64,000 bases of DNA from a virus. Its lineage: Duplodnaviria; Heunggongvirae; Uroviricota; Caudoviricetes. Below the pieces are notes generated by a model. It was not told where the DNA came from. It was given only the letters and a program-made list of their open reading frames with translations, and did not search any database. The position numbers were made by a program, and so were the translations under genes. The DNA lies in IMG/VR virus record IMGVR_UViG_3300004481_001615. One strand, given 5' to 3'. The stretch's first letter is position 1. Each line of letters begins with the position of its first letter. Positions 669 through 63,794 of the stretch are shown here, in pieces.

Positions 669-690
669 ATAAAATAATGGTCAATAAGTA

Positions 691-707
691 TTTAAATGTT
701 ATGAGAA
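691..707 (-). promoter_or_regulatory. conserved BRE/TATA-type promoter motif copy (TTTAAATGTTATGAGAA)
   Basis: Member of the roughly 25-copy motif family. The TATA element is 23 nt from the start of ORF 405..668. Confidence 0.6.
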
Positions 708-712
708 AAATA

Positions 713-2176
713 TCATGGAACTACTTGTGCTACCTCTGTTACTGTATAGTTACCTACACGTAAGTAGTTTATCAGATTATCTAGTTCTGTTGCATTTTGT
801 AGTGATATGATGTATGTTTTAATACCATCTGTCACTGTTATATTGTAGGGTTGTGGTTTTGGGTCGTCTGGTTCATCGGGAATGTCTGGTTCATCGGGTT
901 GTAGGTATTGTGTGTACCTTTCTAGTAATTGAGAATAAGTAACCACTTCCATCCCGAGTTCGTGGATTTTATCAATGAAAGCATTAAACTGTGCTTGAGT
1001 GTATGCTGTTGGGTACGTTCCACCATCTAAGTGATTGAACCAAATAAACATGTCTTTATTTGTGTGGGCCCGCTCTAAAGTTGCCATATCTTGTTCGAAT
1101 GAATGTGATGCACCATAGAACGCCACAGAGGGGAACGCTATCCTATCACCCGCAAGCCATGATGAACCTTTTGTGAAATAGAAGTCATCATTTAGTAAGT
1201 CTTCAGTATAGACATCAAGAAGATGTCTGTTGCACTGTATGAAGTTTGTGCCTCGAGTGAACCCCTTTGAGTTTAACCATGATACCTCACCTGCTGTGTT
1301 TTCGATGATTGTTTCTAATGGTAGTGGTAGTGGTGGTGAGCTATAATCGTACATGCGAGCATAGACACAAAAATCCCAGCCATTATTGTATAAGACTTTC
1401 ATCCTCTCTATGTCGTAGAGACTGACACCATTCGTTCTTGCTGTAGCAACAACTCCACTATAGTTGTACTCTAGAAGTTTTGGACCGGCCCAGTAAAAGA
1501 CTCTATCATAAGGACCATCAAAAGTTATGACTACTGCCCCGTTCGGGAACAGTAATTGGTTAGGATAGGCTCTGAGGTCGTCGATAGAAAATGTCCAGTT
1601 ACCATTTGAAGCAACAAATCTAAAGACAATTCTTATTATGTTTGTCATGTCAATGGTTGTCCCTGAGATGTATGAAGTGCTCATTATGAAATGATGTGAC
1701 CAGACCTTATCAGAACCCTGTAATCTTGTGCCTGTCCTGTAACTCCTCCAAACCCTGACTCTGCCCATGTTATCGTATGTTTCGAGGTAAAATGTGAAGT
1801 CGCTGGGGATTTCCCCAGATGTCTTCACCCAGAATCCTAGGTTACAATTTGAGAGATTTAGTGATGGATTGAATGTCTTGTAGAACCTGAGTTTCTCTGT
1901 ACCAATTTGATTCGGGGTACCCTTTAGGGAGGAGTTCGAATTAACATAACTTGTATTGTCGTAGGATATATAGCCGTACGTGACCGACCATCCAGAGTCC
2001 ATGTCATCGATTGTCCTGTTCTCTGAGTGTTTTAATATGATGTCTATAAGCGGGAGTTCCTCACCCGCCAAGACATTGTTGTTGAAGTAACCATTAGCAA
2101 ATAGAGTGCTAATAACTATTGTCAAAACTAGCATGACTGCTCTTATTTGAACAAACATTTTCATCTTTCTTTCCAC
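713..2176 (-). CDS. secreted protein with a NodB-like (TFDGP) polysaccharide-deacetylase/hydrolase-like domain
   Basis: N-terminal signal peptide/TM (MKMFVQIRAVMLVLTIVISTLFA), an ITFDGPYD motif, and a Pro/Asp-rich linker near the C-terminus. The functional assignment is weak. Confidence 0.4.
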   Translation of the reverse strand: MERKMKMFVQIRAVMLVLTIVISTLFANGYFNNNVLAGEELPLIDIILKHSENRTIDDMDSGWSVTYGYISYDNTSYVNSNSSLKGTPNQIGTEKLRFYKTFNPSLNLSNCNLGFWVKTSGEIPSDFTFYLETYDNMGRVRVWRSYRTGTRLQGSDKVWSHHFIMSTSYISGTTIDMTNIIRIVFRFVASNGNWTFSIDDLRAYPNQLLFPNGAVVITFDGPYDRVFYWAGPKLLEYNYSGVVATARTNGVSLYDIERMKVLYNNGWDFCVYARMYDYSSPPLPLPLETIIENTAGEVSWLNSKGFTRGTNFIQCNRHLLDVYTEDLLNDDFYFTKGSSWLAGDRIAFPSVAFYGASHSFEQDMATLERAHTNKDMFIWFNHLDGGTYPTAYTQAQFNAFIDKIHELGMEVVTYSQLLERYTQYLQPDEPDIPDEPDDPKPQPYNITVTDGIKTYIISLQNATELDNLINYLRVGNYTVTEVAQVVP

Positions 2177-2215
2177 CTACTGCATACTAACCATAAATTA
2201 GTATTGGTTAGTTTA

Positions 2216-2230
2216 TTTATAAATGTTATT
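2216..2230 (-). promoter_or_regulatory. promoter motif variant (TTTATAAATGTTATT)
   Basis: Motif family member. 40 nt upstream of the start of ORF 713..2176. Confidence 0.5.
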
Positions 2231-2459
2231 GTTTGTTGCCCAGCCAACGGCGAGCGAATGCCTCGGTTGGCATGGAACCCGTTATCATTACCCACTTACC
2301 CTTAGAATTGAGAACTGCACCGTACCAGTAATACTTCGGACCTAATTTATCAGACTTTGAGAGGGCGAGTGTGTTTTTCTGCTTATAGATAAGCCTGTTA
2401 TCATGCTTTACCTCGGGTTTGATGTTTCTCCTACCCTTTCTAGTATCAATCCAGACCAT
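2226..2459 (-). CDS. hypothetical basic protein (77 aa)
   Basis: Track ORF; its stop codon abuts the promoter motif. Confidence 0.4.
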   Translation of the reverse strand: MVWIDTRKGRRNIKPEVKHDNRLIYKQKNTLALSKSDKLGPKYYWYGAVLNSKGKWVMITGSMPTEAFARRWLGNKQ

Positions 2460-3231: not shown

Positions 3232-3257
3232 GATAAAAATTATATCATCAATATATA

Positions 3258-3274
3258 TTTAAATGTTATGAGAA
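3258..3274 (-). promoter_or_regulatory. promoter motif copy (TTTAAATGTTATGAGAA)
   Basis: Motif family member. 27 nt upstream of the ATG at 3231. Confidence 0.6.
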
Positions 3275-3658: not shown

Positions 3659-3682
3659 TTATGATAAAAAGAGAAGTAGTAT

Positions 3683-3697
3683 TTATAAATGTTATTT
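3683..3697 (-). promoter_or_regulatory. promoter motif variant (TTTATAAATGTTATT)
   Basis: 25 nt upstream of the ATG at 3658. Confidence 0.5.
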
Positions 3698-3707: not shown

Positions 3708-3926
3708 TTATCTTACCACATACCCGCCCTTTTTGTTGACATAAACATCAACCTTACCACGCTTAAGAACACCAGAATAAAGCCCCATATAGCCCTTACT
3801 TCCGGGTATTCTTCCTTTATTATCTTTTTGGAGTTTTTTAGCGTCTTCATATATTTGATTATGAATTCTGGCACGTTCTTCGCACCACTTTTTATCTTTT
3901 GATACACATAGTGCTTTTTTGGGCAT
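3708..3926 (-). CDS. hypothetical Lys-rich protein; possible fragment of a disrupted endonuclease-like gene
   Basis: Track ORF. One of three contiguous ORFs in different frames between 3708 and 4299. Confidence 0.3.
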   Translation of the reverse strand: MPKKALCVSKDKKWCEERARIHNQIYEDAKKLQKDNKGRIPGSKGYMGLYSGVLKRGKVDVYVNKKGGYVVR

Positions 3927-3931
3927 TATTT

Positions 3932-4165
3932 TTACTCCTTCAACACCTTCTTTGCCCGTTTTTCTGCTTTATCTAGTTCAGCTTGAGTAAAAAGATATTT
4001 ATCTCCCAGTCCGTCTTTGATTCCATAATACCTTCTTTTACCTTTCCATGCATAAATTCCATGACCTGCACCATCAAATGTTGTGAGTTTTTTCTTTTTT
4101 GTCACTTCTATCACCGGTTCCATCCTGACATATCTAACTCCCAACGGAATGAATGAGAGCCACAT
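3932..4165 (-). CDS. hypothetical protein with a GIY...YYG (GIY-YIG-like) motif
   Basis: HGIYAWKGKRRYYGIKDG. Overlaps 4111..4299 by 55 nt in another frame. Confidence 0.3.
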   Translation of the reverse strand: MWLSFIPLGVRYVRMEPVIEVTKKKKLTTFDGAGHGIYAWKGKRRYYGIKDGLGDKYLFTQAELDKAEKRAKKVLKE

Positions 4166-4299
4166 TTACTGCACTTATATTTGTCTTTAAATTTTTCAAA
4201 TTTTTTAGCAATATCGTGGCTATCTTTTCCTTTTATCGTTTTCTTGCTTTTTTTACCACATATGTAGCATGTAAGTTTTAGCTTCGAAGTATCTGTCAT
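4111..4299 (-). CDS. zinc-ribbon protein (CxxC...CxxC)
   Basis: CYICGKK...CSKCGSH. Confidence 0.35.
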   Translation of the reverse strand: MTDTSKLKLTCYICGKKSKKTIKGKDSHDIAKKFEKFKDKYKCSKCGSHSFRWELDMSGWNR

Positions 4300-4460
4300 T
4301 TCTTATTCCTTCTCCTTGGTCTATCTGGGACTACTTGAGTATGAAGAGCAAAAATTGTTTGAAGTTTCTCCTCTTCGCGTTTTAATTGCGCTCTTGCTTT
4401 TATTACATGGTTATTTTGTTTTTCCCTACGTTTTTCCCAAATGCTATATGAGATTTTCAT
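4296..4460 (-). CDS. small ORF (54 aa) below the track cutoff
   Basis: Hand translation MKISYSIWEKRREKQ.... ATG lies about 33 nt downstream of the TATA motif. Its stop overlaps the ATG of 4111..4299 as ATGA. Confidence 0.25.
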   Translation of the reverse strand: MKISYSIWEKRREKQNNHVIKARAQLKREEEKLQTIFALHTQVVPDRPRRRNKK

Positions 4461-4492
4461 ACTTATCTAAAAATAATATATGCTGATAAGTA

Positions 4493-4509
4493 TTTAAATG
4501 TTATGAGAA
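4493..4509 (-). promoter_or_regulatory. promoter motif copy (TTTAAATGTTATGAGAA)
   Basis: Motif family member that drives the 4460 ORF. Confidence 0.55.
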
Positions 4510-6875: not shown

Positions 6876-6898
6876 TTAATTATAGGATAGTAGTATCA

Positions 6899-6914
6899 TT
6901 TATAAATGTTATGA
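6899..6914 (-). promoter_or_regulatory. promoter motif copy (TTTATAAATGTTATGA)
   Basis: 24 nt upstream of the helicase ATG at 6875. Confidence 0.6.
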
Positions 6915-7169: not shown

Positions 7170-7193
7170 AATAAATAATTATTGATATAAGTA

Positions 7194-7210
7194 TTTAAAT
7201 GTTATGAGAA
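7194..7210 (-). promoter_or_regulatory. promoter motif copy (TTTAAATGTTATGAGAA)
   Basis: 25 nt upstream of the ATG at 7169. Confidence 0.6.
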
Positions 7211-7219
7211 GGATTTTAC

Positions 7220-8095
7220 CTATATCTCAACGATAATATCTACTCTTTTCATGATTTCTCTTGTGTTATTACGTAGAGAGACTTCTGTCACATCACAACA
7301 TACCGCGAGGTCTTTTTGTGTAAGTTCTGTACCTAAGAGTTTACATGATATATATAGGATAGCTCCCGCAAGTGTCAATGGAGACCTACCTGAACTAGTA
7401 TGATTACTACAAAGTGCTGTATATATCTGTCTGCTGATTAATTCTATATCACCAGACATATTAAACTTCATTACTGCCTTTGATATGAGTAATAAAACAC
7501 GGTTATCTTCTGTTTTAGGTATGATACCAGCATTTCTAAGAGCAAAGTAACAGCTACCGATAATTGTGTGTTGTATCCTCACTTTTTCACAAAAGCCTTT
7601 TAGACTGATGGGTTGGTCATGTATCCTATATGAAGCATAGATTGTTGTGCACAGTGTCGTATAGATTGACCTTCCCCTGACATACCCAGATGAAACAACT
7701 TTACGGTATAGAGAGATTGCCGTCTGACATACAACAGTCGGAATGTTTAAAGAGTCTTTGAGGACGGCAAGAGAACTCAATGCAACACTCATATTGTGAT
7801 TAAGGGAGTTTTGCGCCACTGCCCTATCATTGACCTTCCTCAATCTACCCCACATTATTGCTGTTTCACCCACATCCTTCTTATTGTAACCAATTAGAAC
7901 TTGTGGACGGGGAATTTTTGAGATTGGAGCACCACGATTTTTTGTGTCGTCAGTAACATCCCAGCGTTCAGTTAATGTTGGGAATCTACAAAGAACAAAC
8001 CCACATTTAGTGCACACACACTCTCCTGAACTATCAACCGTAAGCTCTGCCCCGCAGAGTTCACATATGAGATTATCTAAAGAGGTCGTCGACAT
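7220..8095 (-). CDS. tfb: transcription factor B (TFIIB-like)
   Basis: N-terminal Zn ribbon CELCGAELTVDSSGECVCTKCGF followed by a roughly 250-aa helical core. Size is typical of archaeal TFB. The likely true start is the internal M (MSTTSLD) at 8095; the track ORF extends into polB. Confidence 0.65.
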   Translation of the reverse strand: MSTTSLDNLICELCGAELTVDSSGECVCTKCGFVLCRFPTLTERWDVTDDTKNRGAPISKIPRPQVLIGYNKKDVGETAIMWGRLRKVNDRAVAQNSLNHNMSVALSSLAVLKDSLNIPTVVCQTAISLYRKVVSSGYVRGRSIYTTLCTTIYASYRIHDQPISLKGFCEKVRIQHTIIGSCYFALRNAGIIPKTEDNRVLLLISKAVMKFNMSGDIELISRQIYTALCSNHTSSGRSPLTLAGAILYISCKLLGTELTQKDLAVCCDVTEVSLRNNTREIMKRVDIIVEI

Positions 8096-10397
8096 CCTTG
8101 TATCCCTCCACATGGTCCCATGATATACCAACAGAAGCGAGTATGCGCTCGAGTGGTGACCTGAGTGTTCGATTGATAATCCAGTCATAATCTGGAACAA
8201 CCCCACGGGACGTTACTGCACTTTGCTCAAGATAAGACACCCACTCATTATGAGGTAATGAACCTGTGGATTTTGCTTTGAAATACCGGACTAAATCTCC
8301 TGGGATTATTGATTCCCCAATATACATGTTGTTCCATATTGCACCATTGTAATATTCACCAGAGACTTTCTTCTCGGTAAATGGTTGAGAAAGGTTTATA
8401 GGTATTGTAATGTCATCTAATGAATATTTGTTACTTTTTATAGAATCCATTATAGTCTTGATTTTTGTTGTCAACTCTGTGATGTTATCCATCAATATAT
8501 CATCAATCACTTCCTTTTGTAACTTACGGGTAACCTCAGATGTATTACCCCTCACATACTCGAACCCCTTAACTAGGATGTAATCACAGGGTTCTCCTCC
8601 CTCCCTGACAATCCTCTGACCGTAACGCTTTTTAGCTCCCACACCTGTCCCCTTCTTTTCGATAAAGAGTGTTGTCTTTGCGAACCGGTCCTCTTTGATA
8701 TGGAAGCGAGAATCTACTATACCCTTCTCTCCTGCCCAGATAGATAACTCATCATTGACTTCGTCAACAAGATTATCAACCTCATCTGGCTTGCTGTGTA
8801 TTAAGATTGAATCTGTATCACCATAGATTGTCTTGTGTCCTATCTTGAGTGCACGACTCCTTACTCGGTCTAATCCCTCCGCACCCGTTCTCAGAACAAA
8901 ATCTCCTCTCTCTTTGCTGTAGATTCGTGAACCCGAGTAAGCAAAGTATCCCCACGCACCTGAGAGGAAGTGCTTGACAACGGTCTGGGTGAGCTTGACT
9001 GTATTGTACTCTTGCGTACCGGGAGTATGCTTTTTCAGTTCTGCATCCCACTTATCACGTTCCGCTGATAGGTATGAGATTACTGCCGGTGCTAGTTTTC
9101 CCCAGATGTCGGGTGATGTCTCTTTCGGGAATGACAAGAGGATTGATGGGTAGTAACGTGACATGTCTAGTACGGTGATATCTCGATAAATCCCAGCATC
9201 AGGAGTGAAGACAACAGCACCCTCGTCCAGACCACTATCATCCTCAGCAGTTCCACTCATTGGGAGTGTGAACCCGAGTTGATGTGCCATACGCAACCAG
9301 AGCGGGTCATGACGTTTGACATGAGATGTTGTATAGTTGATTGTATGCAGACCAACAAAATTACGCTGAGCCCAGAAGTTACTGATTAAGTCGTATTGTA
9401 TCCATTTACCATCTGTCACTCGTTTAAAACCAGTATCAAGTTTTACACAATACTCAACATCCTTTTTATTGTAGAGGATAAAGTCATCCCGAGTATTCCG
9501 ATTATTATACATTTCTACTTTAAAGAACTCTGATACCATATCCTCTGAATGGAGTATCCCTTCACGAACAACAACCTCTTTAAGCCTGTTGCCCAGTGAG
9601 CCTCTGATTTTTCTATACGCCTCGAGGAGGTCAAAGACCTCACCCGACTCCCCAACGGGGATGTGCTTGTGGAAATTCGAGTTTGCCCACGCCTCTAGGT
9701 AGTTAATATCAAACTCAATATTCCAACCAGTGACAATATCTGGGTTCATATAATTGAGATACTCAATCACCTTACCCAGAAGATGTGTAGGTGTAGGAAC
9801 ATGCATAATAATCCAGTCTGGTAGTGGGTTCATTACAACCTCTTTTATGACTCTATCATCCGCACATATTGTCAAATACCTTTTATGGAAGGAATCAAAG
9901 AACGAAACAGATACAACGGGTGCTGTTGGGTTACGTGCGTTAGGGAATCTACCCTGCGTTTTAACCTCGATATCCATGTAGATGACATGGGGCAGTATTA
10001 CCTTGTTAACGGGTTCAAGTAGATTATAAGGAATAATCCTCGATTGAGAATCGGTCTTAAAGCACGAGAGGATTCCTGTGTCAATTAGGAACCGTTGGAT
10101 GAAATTGATATCCGCCTCATGTGCTGATGTGAACCTACCACGATTATCACGGACTTTTAGTGGGTCAGTTACAACTATTTTCTGGTCGAAGGAACCATCC
10201 ATAAATTTGTACCTATCTGAAATAACCGGTACAACCCATGGTTCTGCTGGTACTGTATCTGACTCGGGAACATACATATAGGGTTCGAAACCCGTGATGT
10301 ATAGGAGTTGTTTTTTGTACTCTTCATCACGTACCCACATATCGATATTCTGGGACGTACCATTGTAGTTTGCTGTGATATATTGGTATGTGGGCAT
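8073..10397 (-). CDS. polB: family B DNA polymerase
   Basis: Exo I YMDIEV, Exo II YNKKDVEY, Pol A DMSRYYPSI and Pol C YGDTDS. 774 aa. Confidence 0.9.
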   Translation of the reverse strand: MPTYQYITANYNGTSQNIDMWVRDEEYKKQLLYITGFEPYMYVPESDTVPAEPWVVPVISDRYKFMDGSFDQKIVVTDPLKVRDNRGRFTSAHEADINFIQRFLIDTGILSCFKTDSQSRIIPYNLLEPVNKVILPHVIYMDIEVKTQGRFPNARNPTAPVVSVSFFDSFHKRYLTICADDRVIKEVVMNPLPDWIIMHVPTPTHLLGKVIEYLNYMNPDIVTGWNIEFDINYLEAWANSNFHKHIPVGESGEVFDLLEAYRKIRGSLGNRLKEVVVREGILHSEDMVSEFFKVEMYNNRNTRDDFILYNKKDVEYCVKLDTGFKRVTDGKWIQYDLISNFWAQRNFVGLHTINYTTSHVKRHDPLWLRMAHQLGFTLPMSGTAEDDSGLDEGAVVFTPDAGIYRDITVLDMSRYYPSILLSFPKETSPDIWGKLAPAVISYLSAERDKWDAELKKHTPGTQEYNTVKLTQTVVKHFLSGAWGYFAYSGSRIYSKERGDFVLRTGAEGLDRVRSRALKIGHKTIYGDTDSILIHSKPDEVDNLVDEVNDELSIWAGEKGIVDSRFHIKEDRFAKTTLFIEKKGTGVGAKKRYGQRIVREGGEPCDYILVKGFEYVRGNTSEVTRKLQKEVIDDILMDNITELTTKIKTIMDSIKSNKYSLDDITIPINLSQPFTEKKVSGEYYNGAIWNNMYIGESIIPGDLVRYFKAKSTGSLPHNEWVSYLEQSAVTSRGVVPDYDWIINRTLRSPLERILASVGISWDHVEGYKDVDDLFR

Positions 10398-13870: not shown

Positions 13871-13892
13871 AGATTAAAAGAGAACAATCATA

Positions 13893-13908
13893 TTTATAAA
13901 TGTTATGA
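13893..13908 (-). promoter_or_regulatory. promoter motif copy (TTTATAAATGTTATGA)
   Basis: 23 nt upstream of the ATG at 13870. No further motif copy until 7210, which implies a roughly 6.6-kb operon. Confidence 0.6.
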
Positions 13909-14337: not shown

Positions 14338-14361
14338 GATAGAATAATATGTCTTTAAATA

Positions 14362-14378
14362 TTTAAATGTTATGAGAA
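14362..14378 (-). promoter_or_regulatory. promoter motif copy (TTTAAATGTTATGAGAA)
   Basis: Motif family member. Confidence 0.6.
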
Positions 14379-16218: not shown

Positions 16219-16247
16219 TCTACCTGATAGTATAATGGTCAATGACA

Positions 16248-16263
16248 TTTATAAATGTTATGG
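16248..16263 (-). promoter_or_regulatory. promoter motif variant (TTTATAAATGTTATGG) with downstream ACCTGATA element
   Basis: The TATA is 19 bp from the conserved tacctgata element at 16221-16229. Confidence 0.55.
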
Positions 16264-16421
16264 TTAGAGATTTATCTATAAATTCTCAGATTCTCAAATC
16301 GTCAAATCTCAACGGAGGAGATTTTTTTTTTTTTAAACTTATCCTAAAATAAACAGAGGGCTCTAGGTCACGAAGCAAACCAAACATAAATTCAATCTCA
16401 ATATTTATGCTTTTTATACTG

Positions 16422-16437
16422 TATATAAATGTTATGG
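16422..16437 (-). promoter_or_regulatory. promoter motif variant (TATATAAATGTTATGG) facing an ORF-free 160-bp region
   Basis: Motif family member with no ORF of 60 aa or more downstream before the next motif. Confidence 0.45.
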
Positions 16438-19855: not shown

Positions 19856-19892
19856 TTCAATATATCTCCTAATTAAAGATTAGATGATTACA

Positions 19893-19908
19893 TTTATAAA
19901 TGTTATTA
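19893..19908 (-). promoter_or_regulatory. promoter motif variant (TTTATAAATGTTATTA)
   Basis: Motif family member. Confidence 0.5.
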
Positions 19909-21269: not shown

Positions 21270-21292
21270 TAATAGAAAGAGAGGAGAGTCTA

Positions 21293-21308
21293 TTTATAAA
21301 TGTTATTA
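21293..21308 (-). promoter_or_regulatory. promoter motif variant (TTTATAAATGTTATTA)
   Basis: 24 nt upstream of the ATG at 21269. Confidence 0.55.
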
Positions 21309-21982: not shown

Positions 21983-22013
21983 TTGTTATCAATAAGTAAA
22001 AGAGATTATGTCA

Positions 22014-22029
22014 TTTATAAATGTTATGA
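22014..22029 (-). promoter_or_regulatory. promoter motif copy (TTTATAAATGTTATGA)
   Basis: Motif family member. Confidence 0.6.
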
Positions 22030-22921: not shown

Positions 22922-22946
22922 TATAAAATCTATTCTCTCATTGATA

Positions 22947-22963
22947 TTTAAATGTTATGAGAA
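22947..22963 (-). promoter_or_regulatory. promoter motif copy (TTTAAATGTTATGAGAA)
   Basis: Motif family member. Confidence 0.6.
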
Positions 22964-24549: not shown

Positions 24550-24582
24550 GTTGATTGTCAAAAAATAATGGGTAGATATCAT

Positions 24583-24598
24583 TTATAAATGTTATGAT
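24583..24598 (-). promoter_or_regulatory. promoter motif copy (TTTATAAATGTTATGA)
   Basis: Motif family member driving the DpdA-like gene. Confidence 0.6.
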
Positions 24599-28913: not shown

Positions 28914-28942
28914 TCTAAGTCAGAGGATAGATATAATGATAA

Positions 28943-28958
28943 CATATATAAATGTTTG
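28943..28958. promoter_or_regulatory. bidirectional promoter at the strand-switch point (CATATATAAATGTTTG)
   Basis: Nearly symmetric aacat-ATATAAA-atgtt. About 26-32 nt from both the minus-strand ATG at 28913 and the plus-strand ATG at 28978. Confidence 0.5.
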
Positions 28959-28977
28959 TCCAATATCTAACATCAAT

Positions 28978-35060: not shown

Positions 35061-35091
35061 TACATACCTGATAATAAAATGGTATATAACA

Positions 35092-35107
35092 TTTATAAAT
35101 GTATTGG
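35092..35107 (-). promoter_or_regulatory. promoter motif variant (TTTATAAATGTATTGG) with downstream ACCTGATA element
   Basis: The TATA is 19 bp from tacctgata at 35065-35073. Confidence 0.5.
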
Positions 35108-36331: not shown

Positions 36332-36354
36332 TGAGAAATAAATAAAATAGAACG

Positions 36355-36370
36355 TATATAAATGTTTATA
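36355..36370 (-). promoter_or_regulatory. promoter motif variant (TATATAAATGTTTATA)
   Basis: 24 nt upstream of the MAT ATG. Confidence 0.5.
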
Positions 36371-37032: not shown

Positions 37033-37066
37033 ACCATTCTACCTGATATAGTATATATCAGAGACA

Positions 37067-37082
37067 TTTATAAATGTTATGA
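37067..37082 (-). promoter_or_regulatory. promoter motif copy (TTTATAAATGTTATGA) with downstream ACCTGATA element
   Basis: The TATA is 19 bp from tacctgata at 37040-37048. Confidence 0.6.
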
Positions 37083-38917: not shown

Positions 38918-38946
38918 ATCAATAAAGATTTATCCTCTCGTGGATA

Positions 38947-38963
38947 TTTAAATGTTATGAGAA
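38947..38963 (-). promoter_or_regulatory. promoter motif copy (TTTAAATGTTATGAGAA)
   Basis: Motif family member. Confidence 0.6.
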
Positions 38964-40831: not shown

Positions 40832-40865
40832 ACCATTATACCTGATATTAGATATATTCTTTACA

Positions 40866-40881
40866 TTTATAAATGTTATGA
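40866..40881 (-). promoter_or_regulatory. promoter motif copy (TTTATAAATGTTATGA) with downstream ACCTGATA element
   Basis: The TATA is 19 bp from tacctgata at 40839-40847. Confidence 0.6.
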
Positions 40882-41955: not shown

Positions 41956-41988
41956 AGTTTATACCCATACTATAAAATCATAATGACA

Positions 41989-42004
41989 TTTATAAATGTT
42001 ATGT
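41989..42004 (-). promoter_or_regulatory. promoter motif variant (TTTATAAATGTTATGT)
   Basis: 34 nt upstream of the ATG at 41955. It is the last motif copy before a 16-kb motif-free stretch. Confidence 0.55.
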
Positions 42005-53333: not shown

Positions 53334-53413
53334 ACTGCACCTTGAAACCGCACTCTCGATTAACGCACTCCCCTTGTATATTGGGATGACTATACTGACA
53401 TGATGGTTGTAAC

Positions 53414-54163: not shown

Positions 54164-54561
54164 TTTTTTGTAGCCTCCTTAAAACACCTGACCATATCAG
54201 GTTGAATATTTGTGATTGGATGAAACTTCTTCATCATTGATATTGCATTATCTATCGACACACCGTGCCTATATACTAGATAGAGAGCAACAATAAACGG
54301 GGAACGGGAAAAACCACCCCTACAGTGAACGAGTACGGTTGAGTCGTTCCTCACTACCTCATCTAACTCTTTAAGAACATGGTAGTAGTTATCTACAGGG
54401 TTAGGACCATCATTTAGATGCCATGTAAAGTCTTCTAATCCTGTCTTTTTGCCACCCACATTGATGACATAACCAATTCCCTTACGTTCAAGCCCTGTTT
54501 TCGTGTAGTTTGCATCACCAACAAAGATGTTACGGGTTATCTTATTCATCATATTCCCCAC
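54160..54561 (-). CDS. dual-specificity (Cys-based) protein phosphatase fold
   Basis: VHCRGGFSRSP HCx5R active-site loop. 133 aa. Confidence 0.55.
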   Translation of the reverse strand: MGNMMNKITRNIFVGDANYTKTGLERKGIGYVINVGGKKTGLEDFTWHLNDGPNPVDNYYHVLKELDEVVRNDSTVLVHCRGGFSRSPFIVALYLVYRHGVSIDNAISMMKKFHPITNIQPDMVRCFKEATKK

Positions 54562-55111
54562 TCATCCTCTTAACACATGCAACAATGATATGTGCCCACA
54601 CAGAGTGAACACCCTCGATAATATACGGATTCTTTGATTGACCACACAAACTCAGAGAACAGAGATTCTTTAACTGCCCTCCGTTGTTACCAATGAGACC
54701 AATAACATTACTTGACCTTGTTAAGAAATTCTCTGCCAGTCTAAAGAGATTGGAACTCCATGATGTCCCCGCTGGACTCCTACCAGCAGAACCATTGACA
54801 GAAGCAATGACTAGTATATCATCTTGATTAAATAGGTTCTCTATTATATGAGTATAAACATCTTCCCACCCAAAGTCATTTACTTTAGCGGTTAATTGAC
54901 TCATATTATCTGTTAAACAGTTTGAGTTTATCCCGAGTGTTCGAAGGTCAGCTGTCATATGTGACATCGTTGATGCCGAACCACCATTACCTACGGTCCA
55001 GACAGTTCCTTTACATTGTGATAGGATTCGAGAAATCTTAGTAAGAGTCTCGTGGTCAGTCATATCTATTTCTGTTCCAACCTCTGCAAGTAGTTCTTCT
55101 GATTTAAGCAA
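54542..55111 (-). CDS. gmhA: SIS-domain phosphoheptose isomerase
   Basis: WTVGNGGSAS matches the GmhA GNGGSA motif. 189 aa. Confidence 0.6.
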   Translation of the reverse strand: MLKSEELLAEVGTEIDMTDHETLTKISRILSQCKGTVWTVGNGGSASTMSHMTADLRTLGINSNCLTDNMSQLTAKVNDFGWEDVYTHIIENLFNQDDILVIASVNGSAGRSPAGTSWSSNLFRLAENFLTRSSNVIGLIGNNGGQLKNLCSLSLCGQSKNPYIIEGVHSVWAHIIVACVKRMSGEYDE

Positions 55112-56057
55112 ATTGTATTACCTCCGTTCCTGTGTGGGTTATCTCGAATGGTGTATATGTATGAATATCTAGGACCTCTCTTAAAATTGTTTGTTTAACA
55201 TAATCGTTGGGAACAATTATGAGTAAGAAACCTCCACCACCAGCACCAACAAGTTTTCCACCGATTGCTCCGGCCTTTTTCAATCTATCATAGAGTTGGT
55301 TTATACGAGAACTAGACATTGATTTGGTTATGCTCTGTTTTATATACCAGTGCTCATCCATTATCTCACCCAGCCGATTCCATCTATTCTCTATTATAGC
55401 ATTGAAAGATTCTTGACCCAACTCCTTAATCTCTTTGAGTTGTGTCTCCGACTTCCTCACCTCGTTAAGTATCGGCATAGAATCTCTGACCTCACCAGTA
55501 TATATGAGCATGAGTTTGTCCTCGATTTCTGGGTCGTAGATACTCTGACTAGTTACCTTACCTTTCTCATCAATTCTGTATGCTCTCATACCTCCGAAAG
55601 AGGCAGAGTACTGGTCTTGTTTTCCTATCGGTCGGCCTAAAAGTGTTCTCTCGATATAGTACGCGGATTCGGCAATATCCTCTCTACGTTTGATACTGGC
55701 GGGCCCATTACCGGATGTGAGTGCTAGTATTGAACCGACGGTAAATGCACCAGAAGAACCCAACCCACTCCCAGCAGGCAGGTCTGCATATGTTATGAAC
55801 TCTGTATGTGCACGTATGCTGTGCTGTTCAAATAGTGCTTTGATTATGGGATGTTTGATAGCCTCGGGTGTTTCAGGGTTCTCTAATTGAGAATACACAA
55901 TTCTCAACTGTTTCTCGAACCTGAGATTTACACAAACATACACATATTTATTTATGGTAGCATTTATCCAAAACCCACCATGTTTCTCGTAGAACTCTGG
56001 GATATCGGTGCCTCCACCACCCAGAGTAATTCTAAAGGGAGTACGTGTTATTATCAT
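55104..56057 (-). CDS. GHMP-family sugar kinase (HddA-like heptose-7-P kinase candidate)
   Basis: LPAGSGLGSSGA GHMP motif 2. 317 aa. Confidence 0.6.
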   Translation of the reverse strand: MIITRTPFRITLGGGGTDIPEFYEKHGGFWINATINKYVYVCVNLRFEKQLRIVYSQLENPETPEAIKHPIIKALFEQHSIRAHTEFITYADLPAGSGLGSSGAFTVGSILALTSGNGPASIKRREDIAESAYYIERTLLGRPIGKQDQYSASFGGMRAYRIDEKGKVTSQSIYDPEIEDKLMLIYTGEVRDSMPILNEVRKSETQLKEIKELGQESFNAIIENRWNRLGEIMDEHWYIKQSITKSMSSSRINQLYDRLKKAGAIGGKLVGAGGGGFLLIIVPNDYVKQTILREVLDIHTYTPFEITHTGTEVIQFA

Positions 56058-56692
56058 GTTTTAACCTCGAATGGTATATCTTTTTTGATAACAAGAAATG
56101 TTATTACAGTACAAATCATCCTATCAATCATAAAGTATGTTGAGTTCCATATATCTGAACCTACCACACCCAAAGGCACGGGCCAAAATAACATAAAGAC
56201 TGTCGCAGAGATAAATCCAACTATTACTAACCCAAGTGAGAACTTGTCTGTTTTCCACCCTATACTATCTTTGATGAACCATACCATAAACAGACCGGTT
56301 ATATGAAGCAACCAATCAGATTGGAACCCTGTTGTAAGTGCATTCTTGATTAAAAAGGGAGATTCCCAATAAAATGAACCAATAAAAACAACGAGTGCAG
56401 ATATACTTATTGCTTGTGGGAAGTGCCACCCGCGTCTCTCTAAGACATTAGACATCAGCAAACCAATAGTAAGGTAAACGAAAATGAGTCGAGAAGACGC
56501 AAATTGTTCTAACAGTTGCTGACCACTAGGAACATAATAAAGAAATATAAAAAGTCCCGTAATAGCGACCATAAGAATTGAAGAAAGAGAATCTAATCTC
56601 TTCGTACGATTATGGAAAAACAACATCCACCATATTGGTTGAACCCAGAATATTGTAAAGAAGAATAGACTCCTTATGTCCTCAGTATTCAT
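56054..56692 (-). CDS. integral membrane protein (212 aa)
   Basis: Six or more hydrophobic helices. Confidence 0.45.
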   Translation of the reverse strand: MNTEDIRSLFFFTIFWVQPIWWMLFFHNRTKRLDSLSSILMVAITGLFIFLYYVPSGQQLLEQFASSRLIFVYLTIGLLMSNVLERRGWHFPQAISISALVVFIGSFYWESPFLIKNALTTGFQSDWLLHITGLFMVWFIKDSIGWKTDKFSLGLVIVGFISATVFMLFWPVPLGVVGSDIWNSTYFMIDRMICTVITFLVIKKDIPFEVKT

Positions 56693-57375
56693 TCAAAACT
56701 CTCCCATTGCATCCTGAGTGGTGCTCTAATACTATCATGTTTTATGATTGGTAAGAAGATAACAAAACATGGGATTCGGGTCAGCAACCAAAAAATGTTC
56801 CTATTTGGGTCCCCACCGAGTCCTAAATCTGAGAGAGTCATTGCTTCCCAAAAACTCGTCTGTTGCAGGCCAACGTAACCAATTATTACAACAGAGAGTG
56901 AGAGTAATACTGATGTCCATTCCTGTTCTCCTATTCTATCTTTTACAAAACCAAACTCGAGATTAAGTATGTATAATGTTATTGTGAGTGATACTACAAT
57001 GATAAAATACATACTATTAAAGCCTGTTCCACGGAAAAACTGGCTTTGAACGGCCCACATTATCCCTCCAAGGTATGTATGGTCTAGAGTGAATAGTGCA
57101 GATATAAAAAATTTTGTTGGTGGATACAGACGGTCTAGTACTGTGTAGTACATCAAGAAACTAACAAAAATCATAGATATAGATAAAGCATGTACTTTGA
57201 TTGAGGTGTACGGAATTGGTGCGACAGCAAAGATATCAGAAGAAAGTGCTATGTGTCCTAAACCATAAAATATTACAAGAAGTGATACAGCATAAATAGA
57301 GACATCAAAGAACAGACCGGTAAGTGTATCCTCACCAGTGAACACCTCACCATGTGCCGTCAGCCTTCTCCCCAC
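56689..57375 (-). CDS. integral membrane protein (228 aa)
   Basis: Several TM helices. Overlaps its upstream neighbour by 4 nt. Confidence 0.45.
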   Translation of the reverse strand: MGRRLTAHGEVFTGEDTLTGLFFDVSIYAVSLLVIFYGLGHIALSSDIFAVAPIPYTSIKVHALSISMIFVSFLMYYTVLDRLYPPTKFFISALFTLDHTYLGGIMWAVQSQFFRGTGFNSMYFIIVVSLTITLYILNLEFGFVKDRIGEQEWTSVLLSLSVVIIGYVGLQQTSFWEAMTLSDLGLGGDPNRNIFWLLTRIPCFVIFLPIIKHDSIRAPLRMQWESFE

Positions 57376-57892
57376 CCTTTTTTGAAACTAAACCAGTTAG
57401 GTACCCAAACGGTCCTACTGTGAGTGCATAATTCCAGAGAGATGCAATGGCGATTGCGAGGATGTTTGCAAAGAAAAGGGGAAGTATAGTAATAAAGGTA
57501 GATAGGATTAGATAATTTACTAAGACGCCACCAATACCAGCTACGATGACGTAGTTTATGACGGGCCAGAACTTCGTATAAAGATTTGAGATACGACCCG
57601 AAGTATCAAAAAGTTTGAGTAACCCGAGGACTATACTCGAGAGGACATTCGACTTTGAAAGTTCCCTCCGGAGTCTCTTATCGTTCACAATACCCGAACG
57701 GAGACCCTCGACCTCCCTTTTGAGTCGAGCGTTTTCCTCTTTGAGGTCCTCGAGGTCCTCAACCATTCTGTATCGTTTCCTTTTGTAACTTCTCTGCTTT
57801 CGCACGTGACGCTCTTCCTCGGAGGAAGTAGATAAAAGCACCACCGAGTAGAACGATGGCGATAGTCAAGAAGTAATCCATCTCTAACATCC
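57347..57892 (-). CDS. membrane protein: N-terminal TM helix, coiled-coil, C-terminal GtrA-like TM bundle (start revised)
   Basis: Codon-by-codon check shows the track frame continues upstream to ATG 57892 (MLEMDYFLTIAIVLLGG...), which is preceded by a GGAGGTG Shine-Dalgarno. The promoter lies about 49 nt upstream. Confidence 0.45.
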
Positions 57893-57940
57893 GAACACCT
57901 CCATAATTATTGTACTTAATTTATAGATTGGTTATCAGTA

Positions 57941-57956
57941 TTTATAAATGTTATCT
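57941..57956 (-). promoter_or_regulatory. promoter motif variant (TTTATAAATGTTATCT), the only candidate promoter for the glycan island
   Basis: Motif family member and first copy upstream of the motif-free 42.0-57.9 kb block. Confidence 0.5.
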
Positions 57957-63392: not shown

Positions 63393-63712
63393 TTAACTCG
63401 CTTCCTTATAACTATTGACATTGGTGGGGCCGTAGCTATACCCGTTGCACCAGATATCGCGTCCATATAATCTCCTGCTGTGACTGTTCCCATCTGTATT
63501 CTGTCTCCGTACTTTATCTTGATATCATAATTATCTGAAGACACTGGAACCTGAGGTGATATACCAACATTTTCCGAAATGAACATCTGACTACGTGGCT
63601 TCTCTATTTCCGGCTTGTCACCCTCACCACGAACGTATTTATGAACAATCTTACCTTCTCGCTCGTGTCTCCTAACTGAATGCCTGTAGGGTGATTTTCT
63701 TTTTTTAACCAT
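63389..63712 (-). CDS. hypothetical basic protein (107 aa)
   Basis: Track ORF. The promoter motif is 66 nt upstream, with a CCACGGCCGTGG palindrome in between. Confidence 0.4.
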   Translation of the reverse strand: MVKKRKSPYRHSVRRHEREGKIVHKYVRGEGDKPEIEKPRSQMFISENVGISPQVPVSSDNYDIKIKYGDRIQMGTVTAGDYMDAISGATGIATAPPMSIVIRKRVK

Positions 63713-63777
63713 GGTTTTCTACTCCATAATACCACGGCCGTGGCTATGGGGCTAGAGATTTATAGACATGATAAATA

Positions 63778-63794
63778 TTTAAATGTTATGAGAA
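63778..63794 (-). promoter_or_regulatory. promoter motif copy (TTTAAATGTTATGAGAA)
   Basis: Motif family member. Confidence 0.6.

What the first reader, a model, noticed from the sequence alone, without database searches (positions are those of the whole stretch)
689..63794. Genome-wide 24-bp palindromic TATA promoter motif, about 25 copies in front of transcription units
The motif TCATAACATTTATAAATGTTATGA (core TTTA(T)AAATGTTATGA(GAA)) recurs about 25 times. Every copy is in the same orientation relative to the minus-strand genes, and its TATA element sits 23-40 nt upstream of the first ATG of a gene or gene block (positions are in the feature list).

The right half (AAATGTTATGAGAA) is much better conserved than the left. 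On the minus strand this gives a BRE-like TCATAACA block immediately upstream of the TTTATAAA TATA box. That layout is an archaeal BRE/TATA promoter with leaderless or very short-leader mRNAs.

This degree of promoter uniformity is characteristic of viruses that bring their own initiation factor. The motif is absent from 7.2-13.9 kb, 24.6-28.9 kb and 42.0-57.9 kb, which defines operons of up to 16 kb.
Basis: seen in the sequence. Interest (0 to 1): 0.75.

Follow-up and report, generated by a model that had tools for sequence, protein, structure and literature searches.

The report
Uniform archaeal promoters in a virus-like element
The repeated motif is the core promoter (a factor-B recognition element next to a TATA box) of an archaeal virus-like genome, present in near-identical form before almost every transcription unit; the genome also carries its own copy of the initiation factor TFB, which makes it a useful but not unprecedented case of archaeal viral transcription control.

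Summary
The core CATAACATTTA occurs 24 times at one mismatch or fewer on the gene strand, against about 3 expected. With degenerate copies there are 26 sites. All are co-oriented with the genes. One palindromic copy sits between two divergent gene blocks.

The sites fall into two flavours:
- TTCTCATAACA|TTTAAATA, 8 copies, mostly before small ORFs of unknown function.
- AATCATAACA|TTTATAAAT, about 17 copies, before replication, DNA-modification and glycan genes.

The first T of the TATA box lies 30-33 nt before the start codon at 11 sites, which fits leaderless mRNAs. Most other sites are at 35-48 nt.

Gene content is archaeal: an archaeal-type SAM synthetase, PolB, RFC-like ATPases and a complete TFB. 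Relatives with 55-68% identical PolB keep a PolB-TFB gene pair and the same core motif, although their intergenic DNA cannot be aligned.

The motif is not private to the virus. The exact 18-mer also lies 29-34 nt before cellular genes (guaA, gyrB) in DPANN archaeal genomes.

So this is an ordinary archaeal BRE/TATA promoter, probably of the host lineage's type, used with unusual uniformity. A link to the viral TFB is plausible but unproven. The "24-bp palindrome" is really a 10-12 bp palindromic TATA core with one conserved arm.

The parts
63775..63793 (-). Class 1 promoter, TCTCATAACATTTAAATAT. It precedes the 107-aa, 960-aa and 790-aa genes.
38944..38962 (-). Class 1 promoter. ATG 35 nt after the TATA start (124-aa ORF).
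22944..22962 (-). Class 1 promoter before three small ORFs (22044-22921).
14359..14377 (-). Class 1 promoter. ATG at +30 (66-aa ORF), leaderless spacing.
7191..7209 (-). Class 1 promoter immediately downstream of the TFB gene. ATG at +30 (84-aa ORF). L066 and L140 have a motif-type promoter in the same position after their TFB genes.
4490..4508 (-). Class 1 promoter before a run of small ORFs (3708-4460).
3255..3273 (-). Class 1 promoter. ATG at +32 (74-aa ORF).
688..706 (-). Class 1 promoter before the 87-aa and 79-aa ORFs.
57940..57956 (-). Class 2 promoter (AGATAACATTTATAAAT) at the head of the 16-kb glycan/heptose gene block, 57.9 to 42.0 kb.
41988..42004 (-). Class 2 promoter before the SPFH/Band-7 gene.
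40865..40881 (-). Class 2 promoter with the conserved leader TATCAGGTATAATGGTATGG. The unit ends with the UDG gene.
37066..37082 (-). Class 2 promoter with the conserved TATCAGGTAGAATGG leader.
36354..36370 (-). Variant promoter TATAAACATTTATATAC, with its TATA start 31 nt before the ATG of the SAM synthetase gene.
35091..35107 (-). Degenerate class 2 promoter (CCAATACATTTATAAAT) before a 92-aa ORF. Read on the + strand it is also a near-match.
28937..28962 (.). Palindromic copy TGATAACATATATAAATGTTTGTCCA between the divergent gene blocks. It has an AACA arm on each side and is the apparent bidirectional promoter. The + block starts at ATG 28978 and the - block at TTG 28913.
24581..24597 (-). 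Class 2 promoter before the DpdA-like TGT gene.
22013..22029 (-). Class 2 promoter. ATG at +39.
21292..21308 (-). Class 2 promoter. ATG at +31 (radical SAM/SPASM gene).
19892..19908 (-). Class 2 promoter with an AGGAG Shine-Dalgarno-like leader. The unit includes the GT1 and FolE genes.
16421..16437 (-). Class 2 variant (CCATAACATTTATATAC) before a 33-aa ORF.
16247..16263 (-). Class 2 promoter with the TATCAGGTAGAATGG leader, before a zinc-binding protein gene.
13892..13908 (-). Class 2 promoter. ATG at +30. It heads the 6.7-kb unit QueD-QueE-LemA-TPM-PolB-TFB.
6898..6914 (-). Class 2 promoter. ATG at +31 (XPD-like helicase).
3681..3697 (-). Class 2 promoter. ATG at +31 (DUF559-like endonuclease).
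2215..2231 (-). Class 2 promoter before the 487-aa gene.
7220..8095 (-). Element-encoded TFB (TFIIB homologue), 291 aa. It has a CxxC...CxxC zinc ribbon, a stretch ERWDV...RGAPIS where cellular TFBs have the B-reader, two cyclin repeats and a C-terminal helix-turn-helix. It overlaps the end of PolB by 23 nt.
8073..10397 (-). Family B DNA polymerase. It is the syntenic partner of TFB in all close relatives that have a TFB gene.

Best explanation
Each copy is an archaeal core promoter.

Shown:
- The 8-bp TATA box is TTTAAATA or TTTATAAA.
- It is abutted upstream by a 7-8 bp block, (T)CATAACA, in the position of a B-recognition element (BRE).
- The TATA box starts about 30 nt before the start codon.

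Inferred mechanism, from established archaeal transcription. TBP binds the near-palindromic TATA box. The C-terminal helix-turn-helix of TFB reads the upstream block and so fixes the direction. RNA polymerase then starts about 30 nt after the first T of the TATA box. That gives leaderless mRNAs at about 11 units. Most other units get leaders of roughly 5-18 nt, some carrying an AGGT or AGGAG ribosome-binding sequence.

The copy at 28.94 kb has an AACA arm on both sides. It probably fires in both directions into the two divergent gene blocks.

The two flavours probably define two regulons or temporal classes (inferred):
- TTC-TCATAACA-TTTAAATA precedes mostly small ORFs of unknown function.
- AA-TCATAACA-TTTATAAAT precedes replication, 7-deazaguanine, SAM and glycan genes.

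The sequence type is that of the probable host lineage, DPANN archaea of the Woese/Pace/Nanoarchaeota group, where the identical 18-mer precedes cellular genes. Host TFB can therefore probably start transcription.

The element's own TFB is co-transcribed with PolB from one of these promoters. It most likely adds to or replaces host TFB at them, giving positive feedback (inferred, not shown).
For: - Enrichment and strand: 24 hits against 3.3 expected, all on one strand.
- Two discrete classes.
- Spacing of 30-33 nt to start codons at 11 sites and 35-48 nt at most others.
- Location: coding fraction is 0.93, and 18 of the 28 gaps of 35 nt or more in my gene list carry the motif. Several of the remaining gaps are gene-calling artefacts, and one holds the variant promoter at 36354-36370.
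- The top repeated 10-mers in the window all come from this motif.
- Archaeal genes: PF01941 at E 2e-130; PolB; TFB at E 3e-19, aligned over both cyclin repeats and the helix-turn-helix to 1D3U at E 1e-21.
- No excess of sigma-70-like promoters (67 against 54.6 +/- 7.5) or of intrinsic terminators (10 against 12.3).
- Conservation under divergence: relatives with 55-68% identical PolB share DNA similarity only inside coding cores. They still carry (T)CATAACATTTA(T/A)A before genes: L066 about 6 copies, L068 3, L072 3-4, L073 2-3, L140 1, and L071 has the variant TCATAAAATTTATAAATG twice.
- Host-type evidence: the exact 18-mer gives 63 hits in GTDB genomes. Thirteen are archaeal and 11 of those are DPANN. 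Seven of the 13 archaeal hits, against 2 of 50 bacterial hits, have an ATG-initiated ORF of 100 aa or more at +27 to +36. These ORFs include GMP synthase and gyrase B.
- The class 1 18-mer behaves the same way in 5 of 54 metagenome hits.
- The PolB-TFB pair is conserved in the window, L066, L067-69, L072, L073 and L140.
Against: - No transcription start site or protein-DNA binding data exist for this genome or its presumed host.
- The BRE-like block is not the textbook purine-rich BRE: it has T at -5 and C at -2.
- In the same DPANN loci, promoters that were not selected for the motif show only a general A-rich BRE. The exact motif is therefore a favoured variant there, not demonstrably the consensus.
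- The DPANN host assignment rests on 11 of 63 hits and on my own estimate of the collection's composition.
- Only 64 of the contig's 94.8 kb were seen.
- No capsid, portal or terminase gene was found, so 'virus' is an inference.
Confidence: 0.85

Rival explanations
1. Virus-private promoter, in the manner of a phage sigma factor. On this reading the TCATAACA block is a changed BRE read specifically by the element's own TFB. That TFB would redirect host RNA polymerase from host promoters to viral ones. The genome-wide uniformity would reflect dependence on that single factor.
For: - A complete TFB is encoded and is conserved next to PolB across relatives.
- The viral TFBs are only 28-38% identical overall, yet they keep a clade-specific recognition helix, (V/I)(S/T)EVSLRNNT.
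- Among the 150 best TFB representatives out of 1.84 billion proteins, most that matched my helix pattern have VT[IVL]RNRYK or a close variant. VSLRNN(T/I) occurs only in this clade and in P0053.
- In L066 and L068 the PolB-TFB operon sits behind purine-rich-BRE promoters (AGAAAGC, CCGAAAGG), while TCATAACA-type promoters form a separate subset. That fits a two-step cascade.
Against: - The identical 18-mer lies at promoter distance before guaA, gyrB and other cellular genes in DPANN MAGs.
- In this window the TFB gene itself is behind a motif-type promoter (13892-13908), so something else must read that promoter first.
- By my recollection of the human TFIIB literature, the two helix residues that contact the BRE are a valine and an arginine. 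The aligned residues are unchanged in the viral helix.
- L071, in which no TFB gene is seen over 22 of 24 kb, still has the near-identical motif.
Confidence: 0.25
2. Operator for a dimeric regulator. On this reading the palindrome is the binding site of a symmetric repressor or activator that overlaps the TATA box. The conservation would then reflect that regulator rather than the basal factors.
For: - In class 2, symmetry extends weakly beyond the TATA box: the C/G pair at position 6 is present in 64% of copies, and positions 9-10 pair in 64%.
- Extended conserved flanks distinguish the two classes.
- Regulator-bound conserved sequences around strong promoters are reported for early genes of Sulfolobales viruses (PMC11065993).
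Against: - Conservation is strongly one-sided. The upstream arm is nearly invariant and the downstream arm is near chance at most positions.
- Class 1 is symmetric over only 8 bp.
- Orientation always follows the gene.
- Spacing to the start codon is fixed.
- The same sequence is found before unrelated cellular genes.

This rival could coexist with the promoter function.
Confidence: 0.1
3. Bacterial-type promoter of a bacteriophage. On this reading TATAAAT is a -10 box, or the element is a Bacteroidota-type promoter.
For: The motif contains TATAAAT. The window is 40% G+C and gene-dense, with genes mostly on one strand, like many phages.
Against: - Archaeal-specific genes are present: a PF01941 SAM synthetase, TFB and RFC-like ATPases.
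- Start codons about 22 nt after the box, without a Shine-Dalgarno sequence, do not fit a -10 box.
- Sigma-70-like sites are not enriched and there are no intrinsic terminators above chance.
- The phage collection gave no nucleotide match to window 1-25000. The only protein-level matches are PolB, mostly to haloarchaeal viruses and cyanophages, and TFB, to crenarchaeal viruses.
Confidence: 0.02
4. A repeat with no role in transcription, such as a recombination, replication or packaging site, or a small mobile repeat that happens to lie between genes.
For: There are many near-identical copies in intergenic DNA. Pairs of copies share extended flanks, for example 22959 and 38959.
Against: - The distance to start codons is fixed.
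- Orientation is strictly coupled to the genes, including a flipped copy for the one + strand block.
- The core is kept in relatives whose intergenic DNA cannot be aligned.
- The same element occurs at the same distance before cellular genes.
Confidence: 0.03

Closest known systems
Canonical archaeal BRE/TATA core promoter (TBP-TFB-RNAP, as in the Pyrococcus TFBc-TBP-DNA structure 1D3U)
   Same: - An 8-bp AT-rich TATA box (TTTAWATA type) with a 6-8 bp element directly upstream.
- A at -3 and a purine at -6, the positions reported as preferred by TFB (PMC11065993).
- The upstream element sets the direction of transcription.
- About 30 nt from the TATA start to the start codons, as expected for leaderless archaeal mRNAs.
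- From memory, not tested: the class 1 string TTTAAATACTTAT equals the TATA region of the SSV1 T6 promoter.
   Different: - The BRE-like block has T at -5 and C at -2 instead of a purine/A run.
- Two further upstream positions (TC) are conserved.
- Copies within one genome are far more uniform than cellular promoters or those of this element's own relatives.
Intergenic repeats of halovirus HF2, which carry promoters (PMC8707807)
   Same: - Two classes of conserved intergenic repeats contain AT-rich promoter motifs.
- All nine tested repeats were active as promoters.
- The repeats are conserved in sequence and position within the virus genus.
[quoted passage not shown]
   Different: - HF2 is a haloarchaeal tailed virus, and its repeats are 58 and 29 bp long. 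Here the conserved part is 17-19 bp.
- The host lineage here is probably DPANN.
- This element encodes a TFB.
- Nothing has been tested experimentally here.
Consensus early-gene (anti-defence) regulatory sequences of Sulfolobales viruses such as SIRV2 and SSVs (PMC11065993)
   Same: - A near-identical strong BRE/TATA core with virus-specific conserved flanks precedes many small genes of unknown function.
- The same core is found before highly expressed host genes.
- Class 1 here (8 copies, T-rich flank, small ORFs without Pfam matches) fits this pattern.
   Different: - There the motif marks only the early subset of genes. Here nearly all units carry it.
- No Aca8-like regulator was identified here.
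- Expression timing is unknown.
TFB homologues encoded by archaeal viruses and mobile elements
   Same: A TFIIB-family gene lies in a viral or mobile genome. Examples:
- Rudivirus ARV3 and Sulfolobales virus YNP1 (bioRxiv 10.1101/2020.01.16.907410).
- Asgard WyrdV1 and related mobile elements (bioRxiv 10.1101/2021.07.29.453957).
- Aoguangviridae YSH_150918 (PMC10768690).
- Thaumarchaeal integrative-conjugative elements (PMC6563490).

In none of the passages read is a function or target promoter described.
   Different: - This TFB belongs to a separate small clade. The known viral TFBs are only 24-28% identical to it.
- It is fixed next to PolB.
- Its recognition helix differs from the cellular consensus.
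Phage-encoded sigma factors and single-subunit RNA polymerase phages with uniform promoters (functional analogy only)
   Same: Near-identical promoters across a viral genome, together with a virus-encoded initiation factor.
   Different: - The machinery is different (TBP/TFB and an archaeal RNA polymerase).
- The promoter is also present before cellular genes, so exclusive recognition is unlikely.

Membership tests
Archaeal BRE/TATA core promoter | An AT-rich 8-bp TATA box at a fixed distance upstream of the transcription start (centre about -26/-27) | tested here: inconclusive
   A TATA box is present at all 26 sites. The distance to start codons is 30-33 nt at 11 sites, consistent with leaderless starts. 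No start site has been mapped, so the distance to the transcription start is inferred.
Archaeal BRE/TATA core promoter | A BRE directly upstream of the TATA box (purine at -6, A at -3) | tested here: met
   CATAACA abuts the TATA box, with A at -6 and A at -3 in all strong copies. T at -5 and C at -2 are atypical.
Archaeal BRE/TATA core promoter | Orientation co-directional with the downstream gene | tested here: met
   All minus-strand units have the motif on the minus strand. The single + strand block has a flipped, two-armed copy.
Archaeal BRE/TATA core promoter | Located in an archaeal replicon | tested here: met
   PF01941 at E 2e-130, TFB, RFC-like ATPases and PolB are present. The 18-mer is enriched in archaeal MAGs.
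Archaeal BRE/TATA core promoter | Binding by TBP and TFB, and initiation by archaeal RNA polymerase | not testable with these tools
   Needs EMSA or footprinting, in vitro transcription, or start-site mapping.
Virus-private promoter read by a virus-encoded initiation factor | The genome encodes an initiation factor | tested here: met
   TFB at 7220-8095.
Virus-private promoter read by a virus-encoded initiation factor | The motif is absent from cellular promoters of the host lineage | tested here: not met
   The exact 18-mer lies 29-34 nt before guaA, gyrB and other genes in DPANN MAGs.
Virus-private promoter read by a virus-encoded initiation factor | The factor gene is expressed from a different, host-type promoter | tested here: not met
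   In the window the PolB-TFB unit starts at the class 2 site 13892-13908. In relatives L066 and L068 the operon does sit behind purine-rich-BRE promoters.
Virus-private promoter read by a virus-encoded initiation factor | DNA-recognition residues of the factor differ from those of cellular factors | tested here: inconclusive
   The helix is VSLRNNT against the cellular VT[IVL]RNRY. The valine and arginine that I recall as the main BRE contacts in TFIIB are kept. The effect on specificity is unknown.
Palindromic operator of a dimeric regulator | Both half-sites conserved symmetrically | tested here: not met
   Only the central 8-10 bp are invariant and symmetric. Outer pairs match in 14-64% of copies.
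Bacterial sigma-70 promoter | -35 and -10 hexamers, with a Shine-Dalgarno-led start downstream | tested here: not met
   67 sites against 54.6 +/- 7.5 expected. There is no Shine-Dalgarno sequence at the sites with 30-33 nt spacing.

The most novel reading that the evidence does not exclude
A family of viruses of DPANN archaea carries a fast-evolving TFB with a changed recognition helix (EVSLRNNT). This TFB would act like a phage sigma factor, preferring the TCATAACA-type BRE. In this genome every promoter would have been converted to that type. The two flavours (TTTAAATA and TTTATAAAT) would then form a host-TFB to viral-TFB cascade. That would be the first archaeal example of transcription takeover by a virus-encoded basal initiation factor.
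Probability: 0.25. Interest if true: 0.75.

Novelty: new member of a known kind. Interest (0 to 1): 0.48.

Why it matters
Promoter signals of DPANN archaea and their viruses are essentially uncharacterised, and my literature search found no DPANN-specific promoter study. This genome offers 26 near-identical, well-positioned examples in two flavours. They define its transcription units, from under 300 bp up to 16 kb, and predict mostly leaderless mRNAs.

Together with the conserved PolB-TFB pair, the genome gives a concrete test case for what a virus-encoded TFB does. Such genes are annotated in several archaeal viruses, but no function or target is described in the papers I read. The experiment is simple: compare viral and host TFB on two defined promoter variants and on purine-rich-BRE promoters from relatives.

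If the TFB turns out not to be specific, the finding is an ordinary archaeal virus using strong host-type promoters. That is still useful for annotation and for host prediction.

Tried and rejected
Searches that found no close relative or no copy of this contig:
- Megablast of window 1-25000 against the phage collection: no match.
- Exact 18-mers of both classes in IMG/VR, and the class 1 18-mer in JGI metagenome contigs: only single hits per contig. The one exception is an unrelated 44-bp tandem satellite, L060. The window's own 94.8-kb contig is not in those collections, and the look-up by its TFB product failed.
- The search for related loci with SAM synthetase (genomes), PolB and the 960-aa protein (IMG/VR): nothing confirmed.
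- tblastn of window proteins against all motif-hit loci: no related elements.

Attempts to identify structural genes or name the host:
- PHROGs and Pfam on the large and the conserved unknown proteins: no capsid, portal or terminase.
- PDB sequence search with the 372-aa conserved protein: nothing.
- Single-sequence AlphaFold of that protein: unusable, pLDDT 46.
- Cluster look-up for organism names of relatives, and a paper search for the sample identifiers: no names and no papers.

Tests of the host-type and TFB hypotheses that did not discriminate:
- Scoring DPANN and bacterial upstream regions with a strict matrix built from the viral sites: both were only weakly above control.
- The context of P0053, which has a similar TFB helix: a 55% G+C element without the motif.

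I also rejected my first impression that the TFB gene lies downstream of the class 1 site at 7206. That site lies after the gene's stop codon and serves the next ORF.
Full report

Yes. AAATGTTATGA with up to one mismatch occurs 24 times, always on the + strand, against 3.3 +/- 1.95 in dinucleotide-preserving shuffles. Nearly all ORFs outside 28.9-34.6 kb are on the minus strand, so the motif reads TCATAACATTTA... on the gene strand. The ten most repeated 10-mers of the window all derive from it; ATAACATTTA occurs 22 times.

With up to one mismatch, CATAACATTTA gives 24 gene-strand hits. Of these, 22 lie just upstream of an ORF and two (46830, 41390) are inside coding sequence. The opposite strand has two hits. 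Three weaker copies bring the total to 26: 35106, the copy at 28937-28962 between the divergent blocks, and TATAAACATTTATATAC at 36354-36370 before the SAM synthetase gene.

My gene list covers 93% of the window. Eighteen of its 28 gaps of 35 nt or more carry the motif, and several of the rest are gene-calling artefacts.

**2. Two corrections to the description**

The copies fall into two discrete classes:
- Class 1 has eight copies and reads TTCTCATAACA|TTTAAATA(C/T).
- Class 2 has about 17 copies and reads (A)A(T/C/A)CATAACA|TTTATAAAT(G).

The classes differ by one base inserted in the TATA box and by the three bases upstream of TCATAACA.

The "24-bp palindrome" is mostly the intrinsic symmetry of the TATA box. 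Only ATTTATAAAT (class 2) or ATTTAAAT (class 1) is invariantly symmetric. The next C/G pair is present in 64% of class 2 copies, and outer positions pair in 14-64%. Only six copies are within three mismatches of the full 24-mer.

**3. Position relative to genes**

I measured from the first T of the TATA box to the most plausible start codon. The distance is 30-33 nt at 11 sites and 35-48 nt at most others. The 30-33 nt sites have no Shine-Dalgarno sequence. Several longer ones do, for example AGGAG at 19907. Four class 2 sites share the leader TATCAGGTA(G/T)AATGG.

The single + strand block (28978-34606; RFC-like ATPases, a PD-(D/E)XK nuclease and a DUF3987 primase-like protein) is served by a flipped copy. 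This copy, TGATAACATATATAAATGTTTGTCCA, has an AACA arm on each side. It also lies 42 nt from the TTG start of the divergent minus-strand block, so it looks like a bidirectional promoter.

**4. What kind of genome is this?**

The gene content is archaeal and virus-like:
- An archaeal-type SAM synthetase (PF01941, E 2e-130), family B DNA polymerase, an XPD-like helicase and a DpdA-like TGT.
- FolE, QueD and QueE-like genes for 7-deazaguanine, plus LemA and TPM.
- RFC-like ATPases and a nuclease.
- UDG, an SPFH protein, and a 16-kb glycan/heptose cluster with transaldolase, SIS, a GHMP kinase, glycosyltransferases, an epimerase, radical SAM enzymes and methyltransferases.

There are no tRNA genes. 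Sigma-70-like promoters and intrinsic terminators are not enriched (67 against 54.6 +/- 7.5; 10 against 12.3). The nearest annotated PolB genes are mostly in haloarchaeal tailed viruses and cyanophages, at about 24% identity.

No capsid, portal or terminase gene was recognised, and only 64 of the contig's 94.8 kb are in the window. "Virus" is therefore an inference.

**5. The element encodes its own TFB**

The ORF at 7220-8095 (291 aa by the JGI gene call, P0001) matches PF00382 at E 3e-19. It aligns over both cyclin repeats and the C-terminal helix-turn-helix to Pyrococcus TFBc in 1D3U and 1AIS at E 1e-21. It has a CxxC...CxxC zinc ribbon and a stretch, ERWDV...RGAPIS, in the position where cellular TFBs have the B-reader (this assignment is from memory of the TFB motif).

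It overlaps the end of PolB by 23 nt. It is the last gene of the unit that begins at the class 2 site 13892-13908. The class 1 site at 7191-7209 lies after its stop codon and serves the next ORF.

**6. Relatives**

PolB homologues at 49-68% identity exist in metagenomes. Their contigs show a TFB gene immediately after PolB in L066 (68%), L067-69 (61%), L072 and L073 (55-57%) and L140. No TFB is seen in the partial contigs L070, L071, L074 and L075.

DNA similarity to the window is confined to coding cores at 64-70% identity, and intergenic DNA does not align. The core motif nevertheless recurs before genes:
- L066: atatCATAACATTTAtata and atatCATAATATTTAaatac, about six copies.
- L068: tatCATAACATTTAtata, three copies.
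- L072 and L073: (A/G)TAAC(A/G)TTTATAAATG.
- L140: ATAACATTTAAATACTTAT directly after the TFB gene, as in the window.
- L071: TCATAAAATTTATAAATG, twice.

This is conservation by selection, not by recent descent.

The relatives' promoters are otherwise diverse. Only about 6 of 18 intergenic promoters in L066 and 3-4 of 23 in L068 are of this type. The others have purine-rich BREs such as GAAAAGG, AGAAAGC and CCGAAAGG. The PolB-TFB operon itself sits behind such a promoter in L066 and L068. The near-total uniformity is therefore special to the window's genome.

**7. Is the motif private to the virus?**

No. The exact class 2 18-mer, TCATAACATTTATAAATG, gives 63 single hits in one-genome-per-species GTDB contigs. 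Thirteen hits are archaeal. Eleven of those are DPANN:
- Woesearchaeota: 5
- Pacearchaeota: 1
- Nanoarchaeota, Nanoarchaeia or Nanobdellota: 3
- Micrarchaeota: 2

DPANN genomes are, by my estimate, well under 1% of that collection's bases. The composition of the collection was not measured, so the size of the enrichment is my inference.

In 7 of the 13 archaeal loci, against 2 of 50 bacterial loci, an ATG-initiated ORF of at least 100 aa starts 27-36 nt after the TATA start. These ORFs include GMP synthase, gyrase B with an intein, a GH113 hydrolase and an HTH protein. The class 1 18-mer behaves likewise in 5 of 54 metagenome hits.

Promoters in those DPANN loci that were not selected for the motif show TATA boxes 29-30 nt before ATG codons, with A-rich BREs. 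Some are ATAAAC- or ATAAC-like. The sample is too small to call the viral motif their consensus.

The simplest reading is that the element uses a strong promoter type of its host lineage, probably DPANN archaea of the Woese/Pace/Nanoarchaeota group.

**8. Does the viral TFB read the motif specifically?**

This remains open.

For:
- The viral TFBs are only 28-38% identical overall but keep the helix (V/I)(S/T)EVSLRNNT.
- A profile search of 1.84 billion representatives shows a small isolated clade: the score drops from 220 to 188 bits after three members.
- Most of the 150 best hits that matched my helix pattern have VT[IVL]RNRYK or a close variant. VSLRNN(T/I) is found only in the clade and in P0053.

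Against:
- The valine and arginine that I recall as the main BRE contacts in TFIIB are retained.
- Cellular genes use the same 18-mer.
- The window's TFB gene is itself behind the motif.
- L071 has the motif without a visible TFB gene.

I put the sigma-like model at about 0.25.

**9. Mechanism proposed**

- Shown: the anatomy, spacing, orientation and conservation of the sites, the presence of a TFB gene, and the occurrence of the motif before cellular archaeal genes.
- Inferred from established archaeal transcription: TBP binds the TATA box. The TFB helix-turn-helix binds CATAACA and sets the direction. RNA polymerase starts about 30 nt after the TATA start, giving leaderless or short-leader mRNAs.
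- Inferred: the two flavours are two regulons. Class 1 precedes mostly small ORFs with no Pfam match, reminiscent of early or anti-defence genes of Sulfolobales viruses (PMC11065993). Class 2 precedes replication, DNA-modification, SAM and glycan genes.
- Inferred: host TFB starts expression and the viral TFB, co-expressed with PolB, reinforces it.

**10. Comparison with what is known**

This is an archaeal BRE/TATA promoter. The closest precedents are:
- The two classes of promoter-carrying intergenic repeats of halovirus HF2, which are conserved within the genus and include a bidirectional region (PMC8707807).
- The consensus early-gene regulatory sequences of Sulfolobales viruses (PMC11065993).

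Virus- or element-encoded TFBs are already annotated in rudiviruses and YNP1 (bioRxiv 10.1101/2020.01.16.907410), in Asgard wyrdviruses and related elements, in Aoguangviridae and in thaumarchaeal integrative-conjugative elements. No target is described in the passages I read.

The finding is a new member of a known kind. Three features stand out: near-total uniformity, two sharply defined flavours, and a conserved PolB-TFB module with an unusual recognition helix.

**11. Verdict**

- Confidence that these are archaeal core promoters: about 0.85.
- Interest is moderate at 0.48. It is an ordinary kind of element, but a clean and testable system for DPANN and viral transcription.

Noticed in passing
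window 24602-25600 (-): A 333-codon open frame is 64.7% identical over 323 aa to a 326-aa protein of relative L066. Where L066 has ATG, the window has ATA (25600-25598), with an in-frame TGA three codons upstream. There is no ATG, GTG or TTG for 171 codons. This could be a non-canonical start, a recent loss of the start codon, or a sequence error.
   Followed up: partly
window 12446-13572, 17066-17695, 23275-24549 (-): A gene set for 7-deazaguanine: FolE, QueD, a QueE-like radical SAM enzyme and a DpdA-like TGT. This implies hypermodified DNA. Relatives L070, L071 and L074 also carry QueC, and L074 carries QueT.
   Followed up: no
window 42000-57900 (-): One 16-kb unit encodes a glycan/heptose pathway: transaldolase, an SIS isomerase-like protein, a GHMP kinase, four GT2 glycosyltransferases, an epimerase, two radical SAM enzymes (one with a weak B12-binding domain match), methyltransferases and a CDP-alcohol phosphatidyltransferase. 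This is unusual cargo for a virus-like element.
   Followed up: no
window sites 16262, 37081, 40880, 35106 (-): Four class 2 promoters share a conserved leader, TATCAGGTA(G/T)AATGGTATGG, which starts about 28 nt after the TATA start. It may be an initiator region plus an AGGT ribosome-binding site, or a regulatory site.
   Followed up: no
window, first genes after sites 3270, 7206, 14374, 22959, 13907, 37081, 40880: Many first ORFs begin ATGGT(A/T/G)A(A/G)A, encoding MV(K/R)(K/R). The same start is seen at DPANN locus L093 and, in part, at L072 and L073. It may reflect a constraint on initiation or on translation of leaderless mRNAs.
   Followed up: no
L067-L069, e.g. L068 5641, 8574, 8749, 9893, 20628: This relative has a second, sharply conserved promoter class, AACCGAAAGGTTTAAAT, with a canonical purine-rich BRE. 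It has 5-7 copies, one of them about 100 nt upstream of PolB-TFB. No equivalent class was found in the window at up to one mismatch.
   Followed up: partly
P0006, P0007, P0012, P0021 (PolB of relatives); window 19906-20436: PolB genes of several relatives carry inteins (1080-1148 aa, with Intein_splicing or LAGLIDADG domains). The window's PolB has no intein, but a free-standing LAGLIDADG-like ORF lies at 19906-20436.
   Followed up: no
L140 4379-9457; window 35108-36331: Methyl-cycle genes appear in this group. L140 has MTHFR, two MetE-like genes and AdoHcy hydrolase. The window has SAM synthetase with its own variant promoter. This suggests a heavy SAM demand, which would fit the radical SAM enzymes and methyltransferases.
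   Followed up: no
L060 (Ga0209629_10082180) 900-1500: The class 1 18-mer occurs 11 times inside a 44-bp tandem satellite with no relation to the window. This is a coincidental match, useful as a warning for motif-based searches.
   Followed up: yes
window 40535-40831 and 15709-16248 (-): Small zinc-ribbon proteins (TFIIB-type Zn ribbon, E 1e-5, below the Pfam cut-off; a phage zinc-binding domain) are the first genes of two class 2 units. They are possible extra transcription factors.
   Followed up: no
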